A stretch of 63,669 nt of DNA, counting the filler, from Folioceros fuciformis (lineage: Eukaryota), in the NCBI GenBank assembly GCA_049999805.1. It is 14 parts of 14 records of this genome, joined end to end, with 100 filler letters (N's around TTAATTAATTAA, not from the genome) between each part and the next. Parts side by side here need not be neighbours in the genome. Positions count along the whole stretch, not along the records: positions 12,739 to 18,484 come from JBNGIO010002247.1; 13 more parts are not named here. One strand, 5' to 3'. The translations under genes and the position numbers were made by a program. The notes below the pieces were generated by a model. It saw only the letters and a list, made by a program, of their open reading frames with translations. It searched no databases and was not told the origin of the DNA. Each line of letters starts with the position of its first letter. The stretch's first letter is position 1. Shown in pieces: positions 12,486-22,751 of the stretch.

Positions 12486-14289
12486 TCCTCCTCCTCCGAT
12501 TGTACTCCATGGCCTGACCCTTCAGCCCCCCTCCCTCCCTACGCTTTTCATCCCACAACTCTAGCTTCCACTCCACAGTACCTCAAAATCTCGCTCTCAT
12601 GCTGCATGTATTATGTACGGCTCGCTACAATGCGCTTCNNNNNNNNNNNNNNNNNNNNNNNNNNNNNNNNNNNNNNNNNNNNTTAATTAATTAANNNNNN
12701 NNNNNNNNNNNNNNNNNNNNNNNNNNNNNNNNNNNNNNCAACTAGCTATTTGCAATCTTAACCACATGTAATAGTTCACAAGATGTAAAATTTAAAGAAT
12801 GTGATCTCATATTCATAACTTTCATTTGCTTCCAAAATGGTCTAGTTTGTCTTTTGTCTTTGAATTAAAGCATTTACACAATTTTCTTTCAAATTTATTA
12901 ACATGAGCTCCAATAAAAAAAAATTGATTGGATATTCCTTCTGAGATGGCTAGCTGGAAGAATGTTGAGAGCTTTTATTTTGACTGAAACAAGTACTAGA
13001 GACTGAAGACAACTATGATATAAAATCCAAACTTTTTATTCTTTTCTTTTGATCAAGTTAGGGAGAAAGAAGTAACCAAGAGTAGATGTATACGGTTGGT
13101 TGTTCGAATCAAGTCACGAGTAATGAAGTAACCTAATGTAGTATGTTGTGGGTTGTTTTGATGAAGTTAGATGATAAAAAAAAGTTAACTAATGACAATC
13201 CCATTGGGGTAACTCCATTTTCAATAAATGTGCAATGTCTTACTGATTGTGTATTTTATTTTATTTTATTTTATTACATTTCAATTTATTTAAAAATCAT
13301 ATACTTAGGGCATGTATTGGTTACAAGGTTTGGAAAAGTTTATAGCAAGAAACCATGATGGGACAAAATCTTGTACCCAAGGTTTGTGGAATGCCCTTGC
13401 AATACATGGTGTCGTGAAGGAGCTAACTTAACAATTTTAAGGAGTTGCCTTGTACTCATGTAAGAAGTGGGTTTCGAACAAGCTTACTATCTTCTTTGGT
13501 GAGGTCAAACAATCCCACCAAAGAAGACAGTAACAATGACATTATCTCAAGTTAAGAACAAGATGAAGTATGTTGTGTTATGAATTACCCACATATTGCA
13601 GTTTCCACTTTTTATATACACTTCATTTTTACCTTGTACATTTTCTAACAATACATAACCTACAACACCAACCTTGCAAAAGAAGGAAGACAATCTTACA
13701 AAGCTAAGAAGATACCCTAAGAAATTAGAAACATATTAAGTATACTTTACCCAAAAGATCTTTGACTAATATGTATGCACCATTGATGATATCCTTCTAA
13801 TATATCCTGCCACCCAAATTCCACCAAAATGTTTATCAACTATCTAAAAGTTAAACACAGAGGTAATAGAGTTTAAACACTTAAAAATCACACAATACTT
13901 TTGAACATGCATTCGGAAACTGTGGTTATGTGCTCCTGGAAAAAAAATCTTTACTCACATATATTAATATAATAATTTATATTAACGATCAGTTTATCTA
14001 CAAAATATACACCAAATTCTACAAAATCAATCACCTGTCCACAGGTTCATAGGAGTACCCATAGTAGGTTGAGAGGTACCCGCTTTGGTGCTTATGCTGA
14101 AGAAAGTTATGCTCCATCAGTGTCCTACTTTGGCTGAAAACACAATTGCGGATAGTCTCAAAGAAAAACAATGATGGGCAGCACTTTATTGAAGGTGGAA
14201 CATGACAGACTTTCACACTTTGATCCCCCTCCGCCTTCTTTCTTTCAGATGATTAGAGCTTTCAGACTTTTCGAGTGCGGGGATGAAGG

Positions 14290-14603
14290 CTATACTGCTT
14301 GGACCTGCAGGCCGTACTTCAGAAAGTAATCACGGAACTCCTCCCATATGACGACACCGTCTTTGTTAGCATCCAACTTGTTGTACATGTCGTCAATCAG
14401 CTCCTGAAGAAAGAGGACGAACCCAAATTAACCTTCCCACAGAGTGATGAAACAACCCAACAGGTCCACACATCACCCTGTCAGTAATTACCTTGGGTAC
14501 GTGCCTGTGGAGACACTTTATCTCCGTGAGATCTTCCATCATCAGCAGCAGCTCTTCCCTACTCAGAATGTTGTCAGAGTTGACATTGTACCTGTCCCAA
14601 ACC
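14290..14603 (-). CDS. Two exons encoding an EF-hand pair (last two exons of the AFG1 model)
   Basis: [22 protein letters not shown] and [22 protein letters not shown], joined by GT-AG intron 14491-14404. Stop TAG at 14292-14290. Confidence 0.88.
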
Positions 14604-17600
14604 CTGCACACAAGGTTTTTCATGTGAGCACAAAGGTGATGTAGACCCGGTGCAGAACTAGTTGATCACTTGCAGCCTTGCCTCCGCAGGTCTCCTTCTT
14701 TGAGAGTCATGGACTCCAGATGTACAATGAAATCTTTGCCAGGTGCAGTCCAAGGGGCACTCAAGTAGTCCGCAGATTGCATGTGGTTCAGCCGAGAAAC
14801 GGTTCTCGCAAAAGCAAACTCTTCATCTTTCTCTTCGTAGGCAGACGAACTGGGTTTTGGTCCTTCTTTCTTTCCAGTGGATGCCGTATCAAAGTCGTCA
14901 TCTACCCTGCGAAAGGAGTATGGGATTAATCCCAAGCAAAGCAAACTAGAGGCAATGATGTGACAAACCCAAAAAGCTGAGCAGAGCCTTTCAAAGAGAG
15001 ATGAAGTGTCATTGGGGTTGATGGGGTTGATAACTTTGAAGTTCAGCTATTGCATTACCTGGGTTGGTATATGCTTCCGGGATCAACCTCTGCGCTGGCT
15101 ATAAGCTTCACTTTCTGCCAGAACAAAGTTGCTATGTTGAGAATCCTTGCCACTGCTTTCCACACAGCTGTCAATTTCTGACATGCAAAATATAGACAGT
15201 TAAGATTGTTGAGCCATAAGAGCATTACTTGTTCGTAGAAGACATCCACCAGAGTGATGAATCTCCTTGCCTGCACTTCACACAAGAATGGCATTGTAAA
15301 GGCGTATACGGTCTTCACAGAAAAACCCAAGTGACCCTGAGTTTGTGAAAGTCTTCTCATGTACCAGAAGGCTGCAGATCAGGGAATCCATTCCAAATGT
15401 ACCATTTCACTGTGAGCCCGGGTCATCCGAGGGATGTTTTCAATGAAAACTGTATGGAAAGATGTAGCAACAGCGAGGTAGTCTGAAGCTCCTCTTGGGG
15501 TGCCACACAGGTCTTTGAAACTGAAAAAAGCAATCCCACCTGCTGCTTTTGGAACTGCAACCATAAAAGGACAATGGTTAGGGAGAGGAGTCTGCAGCAT
15601 CTGGATAGAGAAATCCGAAGTGAGAAACTGGTGGAGCTTTACACACCAGTAATTGCACGAGAACCCTCCTTCAACACCACTGGTCCAATAAGGCGATTCC
15701 CAGCAAGCTTGAGGAACACCTTCTGCATCGCTTCCTTGGTCTCCTCATTCAACGGCATGTGCCAGACGGTTGCAATTTCACTGCATTAAACAAGACAGTT
15801 CATGCAGAAACTTCCAATAGATGCTCGTCTCATTTTGTTGATCTCCGCAGTGATATCAAAATGATCAACCGACCTGGACCCGTCTGGCCGTGCACCGACC
15901 AGGCGGTAATCTGGGGAGTTTGGGCGAAATGCATGAACCTGGCACCGTTGCTTTATCAGCTCAATGCACGGCACAAAGAGATCCCGCTGCAAACCGTTTT
16001 TATATAGCTGCCACAAACAGTCCTTGTTGGATGTAAAATAGACATATCAGTAGGACATGCATGGAAATGACCGCTCTCCACCTACTTCTGCAGGAGCTCG
16101 GTTGGAAGATGCAACCACAACAGCCCCATGAGAAAGTAAACTCTCCAGCAACCTTCTTAAGATCATTGCATCAGCTATGTCTACAACCTGTTCAAACTCA
16201 CAGGACGAGCAAAACTTGTGCCACAGAGTGAGCAAAATTTGCATTCATCCAATCACAAGGACGCAGCAGATTCATCCTTGGCCAACAACTGTCGCAATTC
16301 ACACAACATGTGCATGTCTTTGGCAGTAGCAACTCAGGAACAAACTCATACCATCCCGACTGATGCCGCAAAAGTTCTAACAGATACAACAAGAATGACA
16401 GATGAGCTTGACACGTTCACGCACTTGAAATTCATCGAAGCAGAGCAGCCAGCCTGCTTTCAAAAGGTCGTTAGCCACAGATTCAACATGATCGCCAGTC
16501 TTGTCTCCTTTCAATCTCTTCTGATGCAGCCTATACCCTCAGCCAAGTCACCACAAATCAATCGAGCCTGGCTACCATGCAACAAATGGGTAAGAGCACC
16601 CGAGCGCTAATCCTCCGAGGCCAGCTCAACCTCAAGGAGTTTCCCTTCCCCCAAAAAATGACAGAAAGGACTACATGATTCAAGAAGTCGGGAGGAAATG
16701 ACCAAGCACACACCTCTTATGTACGTCGAGCATGAACTGATGGAAGTGCACCCGATGCTTGCTTTTTGTGGGGCTGCAGTGGAAAAAAATGTCTGCCACC
16801 AAAGATTTCCCTGTACCCACCCCTCCATAAATGTAAACCCTGCAGATGGACAAACACCAGAAACATGACCACCAAACCAGGAATGCTCACAAGTGAAGAG
16901 GGTTTCCAAGAATGAAGAAGCTCACAAGTGGGAGGGGGCGACTGTTCTATGGACATATACAGGTGCTCTACAAGGTCTACAGTCTTGTATCCAAAGTGTT
17001 CTCTGGATGGAGAACCCTCTTGCATCGGGAGAATTCGAAATGATCGGGACAACTTAAATGCCTCACCAGTGCATCCCACGAAACATGCATACCCCTCTGG
17101 CCCATTCCAACCCCCTGACCTTCTCTCTCAGAGTTTCGACCTGAATTTGAAAAGATCTAGGACGTACATTCCCCATCCTCACGTGTGATCCGCATGGGAT
17201 CTCGACGCGGGTCGAGTTCCCATGTCGTCAAAGGACAGACATTTCCTTCCTTTTCCTGTACTGTACTACATACTTGACGTAGGAGGCTGACCACTCCTTC
17301 CTGTGACTGGTACCTGACCGACGAAATGCAGTAGATGCGTAATAGTGTACATCTAATCCCGGCATCCAAAGTTCCCTTTCACCACAAGGCCCAAGCACAG
17401 TGGCCTACCCTTGAGGTGCCTTGGGCGGGGGCCGCAACCGAATGGCCGAAAAGATCCTGGAGGTGAGATCATCTGCAGGAGGCTGATAAGTCTGCAGCTC
17501 CTGAAACAGACGTTCCAGCGGCTGCAAAGCCGCCACCTGCCCCTGATCCAGCTTGATGGAGCCCTGCTTCACAAGCTCATTGTAGGCGGCTAACGGAGGA

Positions 17601-17758
17601 GTCCCCACCTTGATGGTTTGCAAGTCTGCTCCTCCATGCACCAAAGCTCTTGCCATGCCCAGCACCCATGACCCCGGTCCGGATGTTGGACGGGCACGCA
17701 CATTCCTGGTGCTCAGCAGCAACCCCAACACAGGCCGACAACGGCTCCATGTGCTCAT
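14290..17758 (-). CDS. AFG1: AFG1/LACE1/ZapE-family AAA+ ATPase with organellar presequence-like N-terminus and C-terminal EF-hand pair (~550 aa, 12 exons)
   Basis: Exons (minus strand): 17758-17409, 16839-16714, 16530-16425, 16187-16086, 16007-15874, 15780-15647, 15554-15403, 15270-15229, 15114-15059, 14906-14682, 14603-14492, 14403-14290; total 1653 nt, frame intact. Walker [17 protein letters not shown], Walker [44 protein letters not shown]. All introns GT-AG except one GC-AG (14681-14604). The ATPase call is near certain; the EF-hand junction is less so. Confidence 0.93.
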
Positions 17759-18588
17759 GGCATCAATCGAGGTGAAGGGCTGGGGGCATTGGGTTCAACC
17801 CAGATCTGCTCATCAGACAAGGTCGGAGCCCAGGTACCACATGCACGGTCTACTCTTACATGCTTTGCATGCGCATGCTTTTAGATACGCCCATTATCAA
17901 GACTAGCATTAAAATAGGAGTGGCTGAACTGAACTGTAGGTGAATGCATCCTGCTTTACATCGGAGCCCGGGCATCTTTATCCTCACTAGGGTTCTGTGG
18001 GGTAGGGTTCTACACTTGTGAATGCTCGGGTTCTCGTGCCCAGAGAGATGTGGATTTGAGTTGGGAATCTCGATGCACGAGATGTGGGTACATATGTTAA
18101 TTCGGTTACCTATCAATCTGGGAGTTGTTTTGGAAACTCGGAACCATATCCACTTATGTTCATGAGCCCACTCCACCCCAGCCCACCACAGCTCAACAGC
18201 TTTTCTGAAATCGGCTCTGCTTCAGGTGCTCTGGCAAGGGCAGGTCCTCAGTTTGCCTATCGCTTTTTCTTCTGCGATGGCGGGTCAGGATGTGTTCCCG
18301 CGTGTTGGATTGTACAGTGAAGCTGCAATCCAGGATGGATTTGGAATTTTTCTGCTTACCAGCCAAGCATAGGATTCAGAGTGTCATTTCTCACAAGATG
18401 CTGGAGCTGCGGGATCCGGGTGTCGGTTTCTGGACTCGCTTATGGGTCAGGGTGAAACAGGGCATGTGAAGGGTTGTTGGGAGANNNNNNNNNNNNNNNN
18501 NNNNNNNNNNNNNNNNNNNNNNNNNNNNTTAATTAATTAANNNNNNNNNNNNNNNNNNNNNNNNNNNNNNNNNNNNNNNNNNNNAAAG

Positions 18589-21500
18589 ATGGCAGGCGCT
18601 TCTAGCTCCGGGTCCGGGTTTGGTCCAGGTGCGGGGCCCTTTGGGTCACCATCACGGCAAGGATCCAGACCCCCGTCACCACCTTTGGGCGTGCCGATGG
18701 GCAGTCCACCACCCACCTCACCTCCTGGCGGTCCAGCCGGCCCTATACCACCTCAACCAACAGTAGGCCTCCAACCTTACTTCAATATCGTTAATATCAA
18801 CACTGATTTTAAGGAAAAGGATAGATTTAACGGCACGAAGTTTGAAGTGTGGTCTAAGCGCATGAAGACTGCCCTCAACACACGGGATCTTCTCCCAATT
18901 GTTGAAGGAACTTTTCCCAAGCCCATCGGTAATCCGGTTGCCCTTGACGCTTGGGTTCGTCAAGATCACCAAGCCATGCAGATGTTGATCTCTGGTCTTG
19001 ACGAGGTTACCTTACACCACACGGATGGTGCGTCCACATCAGTAGAAGCTTGGAAGCAAATCACTGATATATCTATCAATCTACTAACGTTATGACGTTG
19101 GTCACAGTACGTCTAGAGTTTTACTCTCTGCGTATGGGTCATAATGATAGCGTTGCTCAACACGTTAGCAAGTTTAGATATCTACGGGCTCAGCTTGCTG
19201 CTCTAGGGACAACCATCACAGAATTTGAAGCGGCTGTTCAGTTATTGGCTAGCCTCCCTGCTAGCTACCAGACCTTTGTCTCCTCACAAAACCAAACGGT
19301 GAGAAATGCACATCAGGCTGTGCAGTTGGGTATGGTACCCAACATCACCGTGTCCGAGATAGCTGGAGCTCTCCTTCAAGAGGAGGCTGCCAGGTTCAAT
19401 GTCGGGACTTCAAAACACGGAGGAGACCGGGTCATGTTCGTCGCCAAAGGACGTCAACAACAGCGTAAGAATTCTACAAAACCTAAACACAGGAACAATT
19501 CACAAGGTTCCGACAAGCCTGCTCCCTCGGCTGGCTCCTCTTCCAAGACCACGAAGCGACAAGGCACGTGCAATTGGTGCCAAACGCCCGGTCATTGGGA
19601 AAGGGAGTGCAGGAAGAAGCAAGCTGGTGAGGCCAAGCGAGAGCCTCGTACTGCCAACTCGGCTACTGTCTCGACTAAGGCCAAGAATCCTTCTCAACCT
19701 GGAATTGCTCTCACCGTGTGTCTTGTGGCCTTTGAGTACAGGCAGTCCTGGCTGCTTGATTTTGCTGCGTCCGCGCACATCTGTAGTCACAAGACCATGT
19801 TTACCACGTATGAGGCGGCTGCTGACACTCAGCGCTTCGTACTTCTTGGAGGTGATTCTGGCCTCTCCATTGCGGGGATTGGCTCTGTCGCCTTCACTCT
19901 GGCTGATGGATCCCACATGATGCTTACTGATGTGTTACATGTTCCCCAGATGGCCAAGAATCTCATCTCTGTTCGACAGCTTGTCAAGGACGGCTCCTTT
20001 CGCCTAGAGTTTGGTTCAGGCGATTGTCTTCTATATCGGTCTTCTAACCCTCGTGTGATTGTTGCTAGAGGACGTCCGCGTCATGACTTGTATGTTTTCA
20101 CAGGTCAGCCCGTGCTTCCGGCAGCTACCTCCCTGGCGGTTCCCTCACATGGAGACCAGCCTTCAAGGAGATCCCACCCAGGTGACGCTCTCCTTTGGCA
20201 TTGTCGGCTTGGACATCTTAATCCAGCCCGGCTCCTGGCCACGACTCAGCAGGACTTGTATCGCGATAAGCTTCCCCGAATTTCGTCAACACCTCCTCTT
20301 TGCGAGGCTTGTGTGCTTGCTAAACAGCGAGGTTCTCCTTATCCTTCTCTTCCTGCTAGTCGGACCACTGCGCCTCTTGACTTGGTCCACGTAGACCTCT
20401 GTGGTCCTCTCCCTGTTGCGTCTTTAGGCGGGGCTAACCACTTTATGACTGTCGTTGATGACTTCAGTCGATATACGTTTGCGTTTCCCATCCGCCTTAA
20501 GAGTGACTCTTTTAATGTGCTCTCACCCTTTGTTGCTATGGCCGAGTTACAGACTGGTCGTAAACTTCGATGTATTCGATCCGACACTGCGGGAGAGCTC
20601 AACAACCCTCAGTTTCTTGCCTTCTGCGAGGAGCGTGGTGTCTTGCGCCAGTTCACTGTACCTTACACCTCCAAGCAGAATGGCGTGGCCGAGAAGGCTA
20701 ACGGCGATTTGATGTCCATGGCTCGTGCCATGCTGACTCAGTCTCAGCTGCCCAAGTCCCATTGGGCTGAGGCTGTGTCTACGGCGGCTTACATTAAGAA
20801 TAGGGTCCTTACTAAGGCGGTTTCAGGCCGTACACCCTACGAGTGCTGGCACGGGAGCAAGCCTCTACTCTCACATCTTCGTGTTTTTGGTTGCCCTGCC
20901 TATGCCTTTGTCCCTTCACAGCACCGTGACAAGCTTGATGCTCGTGCTCGGAAGCTAGTTTTTGTCGGCTATGGTGATGATCGCAAAGCCTACAAGCTCG
21001 TGGACATGGCCACTCGGAATCTAATCTATGCGCGCACAGTCACCTTTGATGAAGCCAAGATAGTGCCTGCCCTCCGGACATCCTTGGAGATTGCTCCTGG
21101 CATCCCCGATGGTGCTTCCTCTGGCTCCAGCACTCCATGCTCCCTTGGTGACCTCACTCTTGACCACCATGTTCAACCTTTTACCTTTCCCACTGATGCG
21201 CCTCCTACTCCTCCTATGGCTCCTATCCCTCAAGCAGGTCCTGTGCTGCCAGTTGCTGGTCATGTTCCTCACATGCAGCCTGCTCCTACGCCCATCGTTC
21301 CTGCTAGAGAGGGGGACATGGAGATAGACCACGAGGCTGTAGTCGAGGACCCTCCTATGGAACAAGGTGATGTTGAACATGTTGCCCTTGATCACATAGT
21401 GTACCATGATCTTCCTTCAGTACCCGTCACTCCTCCGTCCCCTCTTAGGCCACCAGTTGCTCCCGAGCGTAGATACCCTACTCGTGTGCGTCAGCCTAGA

Positions 21501-22520
21501 CATCTTTGGAAGGACCTACCATTTGACATTGAGTTTAATCAAGCTCATCTAACCTATGGTGATTCTATGGATTTCCCCTTTGCCTTAAGTGTCGCTGCTG
21601 CAGAGGGAGATCCTTTAACCTTACAGGAGGCTTACTCAAGACCTGAGGCAGCTAAATGGAAGCTGGCTGTCGATGATGAGTATAACTCATTAATCAAAAA
21701 CAATACCTGGTCTCTTGTTAGCCTGCCCAAGGGTAGATCGACCGTCAAATGCAAATGGGTTCTTAAGACTAAGTTTCAGGAAGTTGAGCCTAGAATCTGC
21801 TACAAAGCGAGATTAGTGGCTAAGGGGTATAGTCAAAAAGAGGGAGTTGATTATCAAGGCGATAAGGTTTACTCACCCGTAGTTAAAGCTGCATCCGTGA
21901 GGATGCTCCTTGCATTATGTGCTGAACTAAACTTAGAAATTTATCAGCTAGATGTGTGCACGGCCTTTCTCTATGGTCATCTACAGGAAGAGATTTACAT
22001 GGATCAACCTGAGGGCTACGAAGACAAGGCATGCCCACACAAGGTGTGTAAACTCAACCGCTCTATCTATGGACTCAAGCAGAGCCCACGCTTGTGGTAT
22101 GAGAGGATGGACTCTTACCTTAAGAAAATAGGATTTGTCCAAAGCAAAGCTGATACTAATATCTATGTGCTGCGCAAGGATAGCTCACTTGTTCTAGTCG
22201 CTCTCTATGTTGATGACTTGGTCATTCCAGGGAACAACGTAGACCTAGTCAACAAGATTAAGGCTGACCTCAGCAGGGAATTCGAAATGAAGGACCTAGG
22301 AAAGGTCAAGTATATCCTTGGCATGCATGTACATAGAGATAGCACAGGCGCTATTTACCTACACCAGGGTAGATATGTAGCCGGTATGCTCAAACGTTTT
22401 AACATGGAGAATGCAGGGGCGTCTACCACACTTGGTGCCTTTAGCGTCAAGCTTTCTTCTGCCTCATGTCCACAGTCTGAAGAAGAAAAGAAAGAGATGG
22501 AGAATATCCCTTACCGTATG
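18589..22520 (+). mobile_element. Ty1/copia gag-pol (family B), near-intact, interrupted by an LTR insertion after RT
   Basis: gag KEKDRFNG and zinc knuckle CNWCQTPGHWERECR; protease WLLDFAASAHI; integrase WHCRLGH, DLCGP, DDFSRY, QNGVAE; RT YVDDL. Single 2-bp (AT) frameshift at ~19069. Confidence 0.96.
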
Positions 22521-22751
22521 TGTGAACCTCCAAAGTTTGGGGTAGTAGTTTGTTTTGGTTGAAAAAGGGTTAATAGTGGTATGGTTTGGTTTTCTTTTTC
22601 AACTTATTTTCCCTAATTTTCCTTGATTTTCTGGTCATTTTTCCTATTTTTCTGTGTGTTAATTAGGTTAATTGACCAGGAAATAGTTGGTTTGGTTATA
22701 AGAGTGGGTATAGGTTTGGTCCCAGAGCTGGGAAGGTTTAGGTTCGGTACC
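22521..22751 (-). mobile_element. LTR terminus, family C/D (the ...GGAGGTTCACA end), inserted into the copia pol
   Basis: Reverse complement matches 49876-50127 and 52584-52818. Terminal TG at 22521. Confidence 0.9.

What the first reader, a model, noticed from the sequence alone, without database searches (positions are those of the whole stretch)
14290..17758. AFG1/ZapE AAA+ ATPase fused to a C-terminal EF-hand pair: candidate Ca2+-regulated organellar ATPase
Seen: after the normal family C-terminus ([19 protein letters not shown]) the frame runs ~27 aa further and splices in phase into two exons with EF-hand loops [12 protein letters not shown] and [12 protein letters not shown]. These exons have no start or promoter space of their own (78 bp from exon 10). 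The N-terminus is Arg/Ser/Leu-rich with no acidic residues in the first ~40 aa. Established: yeast Afg1, human LACE1 and bacterial ZapE are stand-alone ATPases, and the eukaryotic ones act in mitochondrial protein quality control. I know of no characterised member with EF-hands. Inference: this protein could couple organellar Ca2+ to protein turnover. Novelty is unverified.
Basis: partly seen in the sequence, partly recalled or inferred. Interest (0 to 1): 0.78.

Follow-up and report, generated by a model that had tools for sequence, protein, structure and literature searches.

The report
AFG1 ATPase with fused EF-hands
This is a real, expressed plant gene for a mitochondrial-type AFG1 quality-control ATPase that ends in a calcium-sensor (EF-hand) tail; mosses, ferns and many algae share the layout and databases list it, but I found no study of it.

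Summary
A 12-exon gene on the minus strand (17758-14290) encodes a 550-aa AFG1/ZapE-type AAA+ ATPase. Its last two exons add a C-terminal EF-hand pair. The join uses a 78-nt GC-AG intron, the only non-GT-AG intron of the eleven. One public run holds spliced contigs with no mismatches that show all 11 joints. One contig runs from exon 4 to the 3' UTR across the disputed joint.

The layout is not unique. Full-length relatives, 61-69% identical, occur in liverworts, mosses, Selaginella and ferns. The same AFG1 plus C-terminal EF-hand order occurs in green algae, stramenopiles, haptophytes and dinoflagellates. Sources already name them "EF-hand domain-containing protein" or "AFG1-like ATPase". No seed-plant, animal or fungal member with the tail appeared.

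Seven full-text searches found no paper on the fusion. The nearest studied case is Arabidopsis AFG1L1, which binds calmodulin in a Ca2+-dependent way.

Most likely it is a mitochondrial, possibly dual-targeted, AFG1 ATPase that senses Ca2+ through its own tail. That function is inferred, not shown. It is a new member of a catalogued but unstudied kind. Interest is moderate.

The parts
14290..17758 (-). Whole coding region of the AFG1-EF-hand gene: 12 exons, 550 aa
   Evidence: Exon model and translation. All 11 introns are seen as joints in spliced contigs.
17409..17758 (-). Exon 1: start codon, presequence-like N-terminus and the first helices of the AFG1 domain
   Evidence: No acidic residue before residue 45 and 6 Arg in the first 54 residues. 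A contig covers 17408-17835.
17759..17835 (-). 5' UTR, at least 77 nt
   Evidence: Record 3 of run X1 reaches 17835.
16714..16839 (-). Exon 2, with Walker A GGVGTGKS at 16826-16803
   Evidence: Pfam AFG1_ATPase 46.4 bits, cut-off 27. Translation.
16425..16530 (-). Exon 3, with Walker B (LLCFDE) at 16448-16431
   Evidence: Translation. The D and E are invariant in 89 relatives.
16086..16187 (-). Exon 4, with the SSNR sensor-1/arginine motif
   Evidence: Pfam AFG1_ATPase 34.3 bits. S, N and R are invariant in 89 relatives.
15874..16007 (-). Exon 5
   Evidence: Pfam AFG1_ATPase 26.5 bits. Joints.
15647..15780 (-). Exon 6
15403..15554 (-). Exon 7
   Evidence: Pfam AFG1_ATPase 40.1 bits. Joints.
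15229..15270 (-). Exon 8
15059..15114 (-). Exon 9
14682..14906 (-). Exon 10: end of the AFG1 domain ([10 protein letters not shown] motif) plus a 27-residue linker that already starts the first EF helix
   Evidence: Pfam match to profile positions 330-359 of 361. The linker is conserved in orthologues.
14604..14681 (-). Intron 10: 78 nt, GC-AG. It holds the TGA (14668-14666) that would end an unspliced reading, and an in-frame ATG (14623-14621)
   Evidence: Splice-site listing. Joint 14602/14681 skips 78 nt. The ORF listing shows the ATG and the stop.
14492..14603 (-). Exon 11: EF-hand 1 (loop 14587-14552) and the inter-EF motif, with Leu at 14512-14510 where relatives have Gly
   Evidence: weak EF-hand_6/EF-hand_1 matches; E = 1e-46 for the whole EF part.
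14290..14403 (-). Exon 12: EF-hand 2 (canonical loop 14373-14338) and the stop codon TAG 14292-14290
   Evidence: (EF-hand_7 21.1 bits, EF-hand_1 19.5 bits).
14107..14289 (-). 3' UTR, at least 183 nt
   Evidence: Record 1 of run X1 runs on to 14107.

Best explanation
What it is. The locus is one nuclear gene for an AFG1/ZapE-type AAA+ ATPase. Its C-terminus continues through a short conserved linker into a two-EF-hand domain. That the gene is real, spliced in this way and conserved is shown (about 0.97).

How it most likely works (inferred). The Arg-rich, acid-free N-terminus imports the protein into mitochondria, perhaps also plastids. There the ATPase module does the usual AFG1 job on the matrix side of the inner membrane, which is to help turnover or assembly of respiratory-chain subunits. 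The EF-hand pair acts as a built-in calmodulin-like sensor. Ca2+ binds mainly at the fully canonical second loop and opens the pair. The pair then clamps a helix of the ATPase or of a partner, and ATPase activity, oligomer state or substrate choice follows organellar Ca2+.

The gene belongs to an old lineage of EF-hand-tailed AFG1 proteins. The lineage is found in green plants up to ferns and in many algae and protists. It was not seen in seed plants, animals or fungi.
For: Gene and transcript.
- The 12-exon model has an open 550-aa frame.
- Run X1 holds spliced contigs with 0 mismatches and all 11 joints. One 1254-nt contig runs from exon 4 to the 3' UTR across joints 14681/14602 and 14491/14402.
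- Intron 1 bins 16861-17283 have depth 0 while the flanking exons have 40-48. The run therefore holds the spliced form and not the genomic form.

Conservation.
- 12 of 13 hits to exon 10 carry PF03969 plus an EF-hand family. They come from Calypogeia, Marchantia, Ceratodon, Physcomitrium, Selaginella, Adiantum and Ceratopteris.
- The alignment is collinear at 61-69% identity, including both sides of the exon 10/11 junction.
- 82 of the best 120 profile hits have an EF-hand Pfam family. Named ones include Cymbomonas, Tribonema, Haptolina, Polarella, Pelagophyceae and Hondaea.
- A local profile finds the EF part in 93 of 122 sequences. It always lies C-terminal of the AFG1 part, with a median spacer of 22 residues.
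- With an EF-less query, 23 of the 150 best 50%-identity representatives have the tail, including the Chloropicon and Choristocarpus clusters.

EF-hand quality.
- Over 89 relatives, loop 1 has D1 in 77, D3 in 71, G6 in 73 and E12 in 86. Loop 2 has D1 in 68, G6 in 70 and E12 in 63.
- The window's loop 2 is canonical at positions 1, 3, 5, 6, 8 and 12.
- Orthologues pass Pfam's EF-hand_7 cut-off: 32.5-33.5 bits against 30.
- An AlphaFold2 model of the Selaginella orthologue gives four helices with two short strand bridges at pLDDT 85-96.
- The sequence matches among solved structures are all Ca2+ sensors or buffers, such as GCAP1/3, calbindin D9k and calsenilin.

ATPase motifs. Walker A, Walker B and SNR are intact.

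Location.
- N-terminal composition and a disordered N-terminus in the model.
- AFG1/LACE1 sits on the matrix side of the inner membrane (passages).
- All three Arabidopsis AFG1-likes were detected in mitochondria.

Link to Ca2+. Arabidopsis AFG1L1 binds calmodulin Ca2+-dependently within its AAA domain and is found in mitochondria and chloroplasts (passages citing Bussemer 2009).
Against: - No Ca2+ binding, ATPase or localisation data exist for any member that I could find.
- The window's loop 1 is weak. It has Asn at positions 1 and 3 and Asn instead of Gly at position 6. Asn at position 1 is shared by the land-plant group, 11 of 89.
- The window has Leu where 87 of 89 relatives have Gly in the conserved G-H-R motif between the two hands. 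This particular copy could be a poorer sensor.
- Taken exon by exon, the window's EF matches lie below Pfam's cut-offs: 21.1 against 30 and 13.3 against 25.
- The model's pTM is only 0.56, so the position of the EF pair relative to the ATPase is not predicted.
- Run X1 is not on record as RNA and holds assembled contigs only. Isoform ratios, and a minor EF-less intron-retaining form, cannot be judged.
- No targeting predictor was available.
Confidence: 0.6

Rival explanations
1. The tail is a Ca2+-independent EF-hand-fold module, a docking or dimerising piece that holds a partner or a neighbouring subunit, not a sensor. The conserved G-H-R motif between the hands, not the loops, would be its working surface.
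For: - The land-plant loop 1 has lost Asp at position 1 (11 of 89 have Asn), and the window has also lost Asp at position 3 and Gly at position 6.
- The G-H-R motif is better kept than most loop ligands: G in 87, H in 82 and R in 79 of 89.
- Among the structure matches are calbindin D9k and S100 proteins. By recall, some EF hands of that group are non-canonical.
Against: - Loop 2 of the window and of all 13 orthologues aligned keeps every canonical ligand.
- Across the 89 relatives, E12 of loop 1 is kept in 86 and G6 in 73. That is the pattern expected under selection for metal binding.
Confidence: 0.2
2. The GC-AG intron 10 is a regulated switch. Removing it gives the EF-tailed protein. Keeping it gives a 480-aa stand-alone AFG1 that ends at the TGA at 14666. 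The cell would then make both a Ca2+-sensitive and a Ca2+-blind form. This reading can be true together with the best explanation.
For: - Intron 10 is the only non-GT donor of the 11 introns. By recall, GC donors are often linked with alternative splicing.
- The stop codon lies 13-15 nt into the intron, so retention gives a near-normal family C-terminus.
- NCBI calls the Selaginella orthologue 'isoform X2', so at least two isoforms are modelled there.
- An unspliced contig exists for intron 3 in the same run.
Against: - No contig of X1 covers intron 10. The depth of bin 14605-14745 (39.7) is what the spliced contig alone gives (65/141 x 86.1, my arithmetic).
- Contigs drop rare variants, so this is weak.
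Confidence: 0.15
3. There are two separate units. A stand-alone AFG1 gene ends at the TGA at 14666. A small EF-hand gene starts at the ATG at 14623. The fusion would be an artefact of reading or assembly.
For: An in-frame ATG exists at 14623-14621, and its ORF runs into EF-hand 1.
Against: - A spliced contig at depth 86 joins 14682 to 14603 and removes that ATG.
- Database proteins from Calypogeia, Marchantia, Ceratodon, Physcomitrium, Selaginella, Adiantum and Ceratopteris, plus six unnamed transcriptome or contig proteins (five from Logan assemblies, one from EukProt), read straight through the same junction.
- The first EF helix begins in exon 10.
- There are only 78 nt between the units.
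Confidence: 0.02

Closest known systems
Yeast Afg1 / human AFG1L (LACE1), the mitochondrial AFG1 ATPases
   Same: Same Pfam family, PF03969. Several single exons pass the cut-off, and orthologues score 299-326 bits. Walker A, Walker B, SNR and the C-terminal FAF-R-T-VSRL motif are kept. The N-terminus looks like a presequence. The role expected by homology is matrix-side help in turnover of complex IV subunits (passages).
   Different: The EF-less animal, fungal and Cavenderia (slime-mould) proteins end 5-21 residues after the AFG1 profile; one fungal row, Coemansia, has a 60-residue tail. This protein adds a linker of about 20 residues and an 80-residue EF-hand pair. In the AFG1-domain tree, the EF-less animal, fungal and slime-mould (opisthokont and amoebozoan) rows fall outside the EF-tailed group.
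Bacterial ZapE (E. coli cell-division ATPase)
   Same: Same family and the same AAA+ motifs. The bacterial-type rows serve as outgroup to all eukaryotic rows (100*).
   Different: No EF tail and no presequence. Lengths are about 370-400 aa. The described role, cell division, is different (passage).
Arabidopsis AFG1L1 (At4g30490), a calmodulin-binding AAA+ ATPase of mitochondria and chloroplasts
   Same: An AFG1-family ATPase of a plant organelle that is tied to Ca2+ signalling. It binds calmodulin Ca2+-dependently within its AAA domain (Bussemer et al. 2009 as cited in passages read; the original paper is not held).
   Different: There the EF-hand sensor is a separate protein acting in trans. 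Here it is part of the same chain. No seed-plant protein appeared among the best 120 hits or in the 20 clusters I looked up. AFG1L1 is therefore probably not the orthologue.
Database orthologues: Physcomitrium A0A2K1KUX4, Ceratodon M758_1G128000, Selaginella 'AFG1-like ATPase isoform X2', Marchantia MPTK1_6g04760, Calypogeia, Adiantum and Ceratopteris proteins
   Same: Same length class (535-568 aa), same domain order and same junction. They are 61-69% identical to the window's model.
   Different: In loop 1 the window has Asn at position 3, shared in the set only with Selaginella. It has Leu for the near-invariant Gly of the G-H-R motif. None of these proteins has a paper in the library I searched.
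Mitochondrial ATP-Mg/Pi carrier (APC/SCaMC), an EF-hand regulatory domain fused to a carrier
   Same: A working analogy only. It is a mitochondrial protein that became Ca2+-regulated by fusion with an EF-hand domain (title and abstract of PMC6283063, seen in the listing).
   Different: The catalytic module is unrelated. Its EF domain is N-terminal and, by recall, has four hands. There is no homology beyond the EF-hand fold.

Membership tests
AFG1/ZapE ATPase (Pfam PF03969) | Significant match to the family profile over its whole length | tested here: met
   Exons 2, 4 and 7 each pass the 27-bit cut-off on their own (46.4, 34.3 and 40.1 bits). Exons 3, 5, 6 and 10 match successive profile parts up to position 359 of 361. 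A local AFG1 profile covers residues 55-449 of the model.
AFG1/ZapE ATPase (Pfam PF03969) | AAA+ motifs: Walker A GxxGxGK[ST], Walker B hhhhDE, and sensor-1 Asn with the adjacent Arg (SNR) | tested here: met
   [14 protein letters not shown] and SSNR are present in the translation. D, E, S, N and R are invariant in 89 relatives.
AFG1/ZapE ATPase (Pfam PF03969) | ATP hydrolysis and a role in mitochondrial protein turnover | not testable with these tools
   Needs a bench assay. No solved AFG1 structure was found by sequence or by fold.
EF-hand pair (Pfam PF13499, EF-hand_7) | Match to the pair profile above the curated cut-off | tested here: inconclusive
   The window can only be scanned exon by exon. 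Exon 12 scores 21.1 bits (cut-off 30) and exon 11 scores 13.3 bits for EF-hand_6 (cut-off 25). The orthologues pass at 32.5-33.5 bits. The window's EF part scores E = 1e-46 against a profile of their tails.
EF-hand pair (Pfam PF13499, EF-hand_7) | 12-residue loops with oxygen ligands at positions 1, 3, 5 and 12, Gly at 6 and a hydrophobic residue at 8 | tested here: met
   Loop 2 ([12 protein letters not shown]) meets all of these. Loop 1 ([12 protein letters not shown]) keeps D5, L8, S9 and E12 but has Asn at 1, 3 and 6, so it is only partly canonical.
EF-hand pair (Pfam PF13499, EF-hand_7) | Helix-loop-helix twice, with the two loops paired by a short beta bridge | tested here: met
   The AlphaFold2 model of the Selaginella orthologue has helices at 464-474, 484-499, 506-516 and 526-536 and strand bridges at 481-482 and 524-525, at pLDDT 85-96. 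This was tested on the orthologue, not on the window's own protein.
EF-hand pair (Pfam PF13499, EF-hand_7) | Ca2+ binding | not testable with these tools
   Needs ITC, a 45Ca overlay or a similar assay.
EF-hand-tailed AFG1 lineage (database architecture PF03969 + PF13499) | EF pair directly C-terminal of the AFG1 domain, and placement inside the clade of such proteins in a tree built from the AFG1 domain alone | tested here: met
   The window has a spacer of 20 residues (family median 22). The window sits in the land-plant group (100*), inside the green group (98-99*).
Calmodulin-binding AFG1L1 type (Arabidopsis At4g30490) | Ca2+-dependent binding of free calmodulin to a site in the AAA domain | not tested
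No seed-plant protein was among the hits examined.

The most novel reading that the evidence does not exclude
The EF-hand tail was fused to AFG1 once, before green plants and the stramenopile-alveolate-rhizarian and haptophyte groups diverged. It makes AFG1 a direct matrix Ca2+ sensor that ties respiratory-chain maintenance to organellar Ca2+. Seed plants later lost this gene and rebuilt the same control in trans, by letting free calmodulin bind a remaining AFG1 paralogue (AFG1L1), possibly at the surface that the built-in tail once used.
Probability: 0.2. Interest if true: 0.65.

Novelty: new member of a known kind. Interest (0 to 1): 0.4.

Why it matters
AFG1/LACE1/ZapE is a conserved but poorly understood ATPase of mitochondrial protein maintenance. 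How Ca2+ reaches the organelle's protein-quality machinery is largely open.

A whole lineage of AFG1 proteins with a built-in Ca2+ sensor sits in non-seed plants and many algae, outside the usual models (yeast, animals, Arabidopsis). It offers a direct and genetically tractable handle, because Physcomitrium and Marchantia have orthologues.

It also gives an evolutionary frame for the otherwise isolated report that Arabidopsis AFG1L1 binds calmodulin.

For the scan itself, the lesson is that the fusion is real but not new to the databases. It is only new to the literature I could search.

Tried and rejected
- Docking test. The AFG1 part and the EF part of the Selaginella orthologue were folded as two chains with 2 Ca. 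The result was no support (score 0.00, mark 0.34). It counts neither for nor against docking.
- Sequencing runs. No holder is on record as RNA. The single run listed is marked 'RNA? (a guess)'. Its nature was judged from the laid contigs instead.
- Whole genome. No genome is held for this window, so paralogues in the same genome could not be counted.
- Earlier notes of the scan. There is nothing on this genome, this protein or AFG1. The eight EF-hand notes shown from that look-up concern other proteins in archaea and bacteria and did not affect this reading.
- Solved structures. No AFG1/ZapE structure was found. The best folds are DnaC/DnaI/DnaA/IstB-type AAA+ modules at E about 3e-5 and TM up to 0.64 on the target. 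This gives only the general AAA+ class.
- Original AFG1L1 paper. It is not held and is cited second-hand.
- Literature searches for the fusion. No hit describes it. I opened passages of eight of the listed papers. They name AFG1 and EF-hands in separate contexts.
- A eukaryote-wide ZapE phylogeny paper never uses the word calcium (found through a reference). Its supplementary trees could not be seen and might show these sequences.
- Other donors for intron 10. A GT donor at 14669 (CAA|gtgatc) was considered. It puts exon 11 out of frame with an early stop, and it is not what the contig shows (my reading).
- Downstream gene. I considered that the EF exons might belong to a downstream gene. No convincing ORF lies within about 3 kb downstream on either strand, and the transcript ends at about 14107.
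- First Pfam call. It failed on a frame slip of mine and was corrected.
Full report
**The sequence**

Reading the minus strand of 14000-18200 and joining exons in a script gives a 12-exon gene. Translation starts at 17758 and ends with TAG at 14292-14290. The CDS is 1653 nt and the product 550 aa.

The exons are:
- 17758-17409
- 16839-16714
- 16530-16425
- 16187-16086
- 16007-15874
- 15780-15647
- 15554-15403
- 15270-15229
- 15114-15059
- 14906-14682
- 14603-14492
- 14403-14290

Ten introns are GT-AG. Intron 10 (14681-14604, 78 nt) is GC-AG, with a donor that otherwise fits the consensus well (GAG|gcaagg). If intron 10 stays in, the frame stops at the TGA at 14668-14666 after 480 aa.

Inside that intron there is an in-frame ATG (14623-14621) whose ORF runs into the first EF-hand.

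**Domains**

Scanned exon by exon, Pfam AFG1_ATPase (PF03969) matches exons 2 to 10 in order. Exons 2, 4 and 7 each pass the curated cut-off alone. The profile ends at position 359 of 361, just past the L of SADYL in exon 10.

27 more residues follow in exon 10. Exon 11 then holds loop [12 protein letters not shown] (14587-14552) and exon 12 holds loop [12 protein letters not shown] (14373-14338). The short EF exons reach only sub-threshold Pfam scores when scanned alone (21.1 and 13.3 bits).

Walker A (GGVGTGKS, 16826-16803), Walker B (LLCFDE, 16448-16431) and the SSNR motif are intact.

The N-terminus has no acidic residue before position 45 and has 6 Arg in the first 54 residues.

**Is it one transcript?**

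One public run (X1) holds 40% of the sampled words of 14200-15300. It is not on record as RNA.

Laid on 13900-18100, it gives 5 contigs, all at least 99% alike, with no differing letters. They show 11 joints whose skipped lengths are 88, 78, 152, 114, 132, 92, 93, 78, 237, 183 and 569. These are exactly the 11 predicted introns.

One 1254-nt contig of depth 86 covers exon 12 plus 183 nt of 3' UTR, then exons 11, 10, 7 and 5 in the listed pieces. The gaps in its own coordinates equal the lengths of exons 9+8, 6 and 4. It therefore spans exons 4 to 12.

The joint at 14602/14681 may lie up to 3 places further on. One place further on, the skipped stretch reads GC...AG on the minus strand. Every allowed placement gives the same mRNA.

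Intron 1 has zero depth over three bins while its flanking exons have 40-48. The run therefore holds the processed form, not genomic DNA.

The depth of the bin that contains intron 10 (39.7) equals what the spliced contig alone contributes (65/141 x 86.1, my arithmetic). No contig there keeps the intron. Contigs drop rare forms, so a minor retained isoform is not excluded. An unspliced contig does exist for intron 3 (16158-16452, depth 9.8).

**Relatives**

A word-index search with exon 10, asking for longer proteins, found 13 proteins among 39 candidates. 12 of the 13 carry PF03969 plus an EF-hand family. The named ones are:
- Calypogeia fissa
- Marchantia polymorpha (two models)
- Ceratodon purpureus
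- Physcomitrium patens
- Selaginella moellendorffii ('AFG1-like ATPase isoform X2')
- Adiantum nelumboides
- Ceratopteris richardii

The window's model aligns with them end to end at 61-69% identity. The last residues of exon 10 (EGDLRR) and the first of exon 11 (VWDRYN; most others have IWDRYN) lie in one conserved block. A search with only the tail of the Selaginella protein returned the same set, 11 of 37 candidates.

A profile of nine full-length members (A1) found 6064 proteins at E <= 1e-20 among 8000 scored. Of the 120 best listed, 82 carry at least one EF-hand-type Pfam family by my count of the table. Named ones include:
- Cymbomonas tetramitiformis
- Tribonema minus
- Haptolina ericina
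- Polarella glacialis
- a pelagophyte
- Hondaea fermentalgiana

One JGI protein is already labelled 'predicted ATPase/Ca2+-binding EF-hand superfamily protein'. The EF-less rows in that list are fungi, animals, a dictyostelid, bacteria and a few unnamed ones. No seed plant is listed.

That ranking is biased, because the profile contains the tail. I therefore also searched 1.84 billion 50%-identity representatives with an EF-less, truncated Marchantia paleacea model (P0014). 6293 hits reached E <= 0.001 and 290 reached 1e-30.

After the query itself come the land-plant representative (66% identity, 455 bits) and a fragment. The next hit drops to 193 bits at 44% identity. No closer EF-less group, such as a seed-plant orthologue, fills the gap.

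Of the 150 best, 23 have the tail, always C-terminal. Of the 20 clusters I looked up by name, none is from a seed plant. Named ones are Chloropicon roscoffensis and Choristocarpus tenellus (both with the tail), and Diphylleia rotans, Circinella and Aureococcus (without).

A language-model atlas lists a 140-member cluster named 'EF-hand domain-containing protein'. It has PF03969 in 100% and PF13499 in 54% of members, and its commonest phylum is Streptophyta.

**Order of domains and tree**

Local profiles of the AFG1 part and of the tail find the tail in 93 of 122 sequences (the window's model plus 121 database proteins). It is always C-terminal, with a spacer of 18-78 residues (median 22). EF-less fungal, animal and bacterial proteins mostly end 5-21 residues after the AFG1 profile.

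A FastTree of the AFG1 part alone used 120 rows. Two short rows, P0002 and P0006, were dropped. It gives these groups:
- a eukaryotic clade (100*)
- a green group of 16 rows that holds the window (98*)
- a group of 80 rows from stramenopiles, haptophytes, alveolates and rhizarians (97*)
- separate EF-less opisthokont and amoebozoan groups

The tail needs 6 changes on that tree. The EF-less rows inside EF groups include an obviously truncated Marchantia paleacea model.

An IQ-TREE 'quick' run used 63 rows that I chose. The 57 left out include all five EF-less rows that had sat inside EF groups, so 'one change' is partly by construction. It puts all 43 EF-tailed rows on one side of a branch with weak support (SH-aLRT 80). 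The green group gets 99*, the other group 97* and the bacterial-type outgroup 100*.

A single old fusion is therefore compatible with the data but not shown. The same tree shape would also follow simply from species relationships.

The window's protein sits in an unresolved land-plant group (100*). It is closest to Selaginella, at 72% identity over the AFG1 part. I did not identify the organism.

**Quality of the EF-hands**

Over 89 tailed relatives (A2):
- Loop 1 is canonical: D1 in 77, D3 in 71, G6 in 73, hydrophobic at 8 in all 89, E12 in 86.
- Loop 2 is nearly so: D1 in 68, G6 in 70, E12 in 63.

Between the hands lies a family-specific G-H-R motif (G in 87, H in 82, R in 79 of 89).

The land-plant group has Asn at loop-1 position 1 (11 of 89). 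The window also has Asn at positions 3 and 6, and Leu (14512-14510) for the near-invariant Gly. The transcript contig agrees with the genome there, so these are not sequencing errors. The window's loop 2 is fully canonical.

Orthologues pass Pfam's EF-hand_7 cut-off (32.5-33.5 bits against 30), and algal members pass well above it (45.9-54.8 bits).

An AlphaFold2 model of the Selaginella orthologue built with A2 has mean pLDDT 84.6 and pTM 0.56. Residues 1-34 are disordered. The tail forms four helices with two short strand bridges at pLDDT 85-96. The spliced window protein itself could not be handed to the remote tools, so folds and profile searches rest on orthologues.

A sequence search of solved structures with A1 returns 18 chains, all EF-hand proteins (GCAP1/3, calbindin D9k, calsenilin, S100, neurocalcin), and nothing for the ATPase part. 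Foldseek gives only general AAA+ neighbours such as DnaC, DnaI, DnaA and IstB.

**What is in print**

Seven full-text searches found no paper that describes an AFG1 or ZapE protein with EF-hands. The terms were AFG1 + EF-hand; AFG1L1; AFG1-like ATPase/calcium/EF-hand; ZapE + EF-hand; AFG1/calmodulin/mitochondria/chloroplast; AFG1 + 'EF hand'; and LACE1 + EF-hand. The passages I read in eight of the listed papers mention the two things separately.

A eukaryote-wide ZapE phylogeny paper (PMC7314023, passages only) does not contain the word calcium. Its supplementary trees were not visible to me.

The relevant known biology is as follows:
- AFG1/LACE1 sits on the matrix side of the inner membrane and mediates turnover of complex IV subunits (passages in PMC7050145 and PMC12699882).
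- Trypanosome ZapE interacts with Oxa1 (abstract passage).
- Arabidopsis has three AFG1-likes, all detected in mitochondria (PMC12464808).
- One of them, AFG1L1 (At4g30490), binds calmodulin in a Ca2+-dependent way within its AAA domain. It is found in both mitochondria and chloroplasts (Bussemer et al. 2009, as cited in PMC3830196, PMC3758327, PMC4844381 and PMC6471148). The original is not held.

**Mechanism**

Shown:
- One gene and one spliced mRNA.
- An intact ATPase module.
- A folded-looking EF pair with at least one canonical loop.
- Strong conservation of the layout.

Inferred:
- Import into mitochondria, perhaps also plastids, from N-terminal composition and family knowledge.
- Ca2+ binding, from the loop ligands.
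- Ca2+-dependent control of the ATPase or of its partner choice, by analogy with calmodulin acting on AFG1L1 and with other EF-hand-fused organellar proteins.

A two-chain docking test of the tail against the ATPase part gave no verdict and is not used. I put the structural claim at about 0.97 and the Ca2+-sensor mechanism at about 0.6.

**Verdict**

Its novelty claim does not survive in the strong form. The architecture is widespread and already labelled in public databases. It does remain without any experimental study in the literature I could search.

The gene in this window is a further member of that catalogued, unstudied kind.

Noticed in passing
window 19068-22562 (+), with 18541-19095 (+) upstream of it: A 1164-aa stop-free frame directly upstream of the gene. 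By eye it has a CCHC zinc-knuckle, integrase-like motifs and a YVDDL-type reverse-transcriptase motif. It looks like a Ty1/copia-type LTR retrotransposon polyprotein. It was seen in an ORF listing only; no family search was run.
   Followed up: no
window, 26 runs of N, e.g. 18485-18528 and 18541-18584: Runs of exactly 44 N come in pairs 12 bases apart, every 3-10 kb along the window (1144 N in all). They look like masking or scaffolding marks rather than biology.
   Followed up: no
window 14512-14510 (-): The window has Leu where 87 of 89 EF-tailed relatives have Gly, in a family-specific G-H-R motif between the two EF-hands. The transcript contig agrees with the genome. The motif itself is unexplained and is better conserved than several loop ligands.
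   Followed up: partly
window 14587-14552 (-): All land-plant members have Asn instead of Asp at position 1 of EF loop 1 (11 of 89 relatives). The window and Selaginella also have Asn at position 3. The first hand may have weakened in land plants.
   Followed up: partly
window 16158-16452: Run X1 holds a 295-nt unspliced contig (depth 9.8) that runs through intron 3, beside the spliced form (depth about 46). This is either intron retention or pre-mRNA.
   Followed up: no
P0008 and P0014 (Marchantia polymorpha and M. paleacea database models): Both public gene models look faulty against the other orthologues. P0008 lacks one exon's worth of the AAA domain, carries a 36-residue insert that looks like a translated intron, and misses four residues at the EF junction. 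P0014 stops before the tail.
   Followed up: partly
window 17964-18100 and beyond: A separate 2923-nt contig of run X1 (depth 49.8) ends at 17964, about 130 nt upstream of the gene's 5' UTR, and runs on past 18100. Something next door, perhaps the retroelement, is present in the same run.
   Followed up: no
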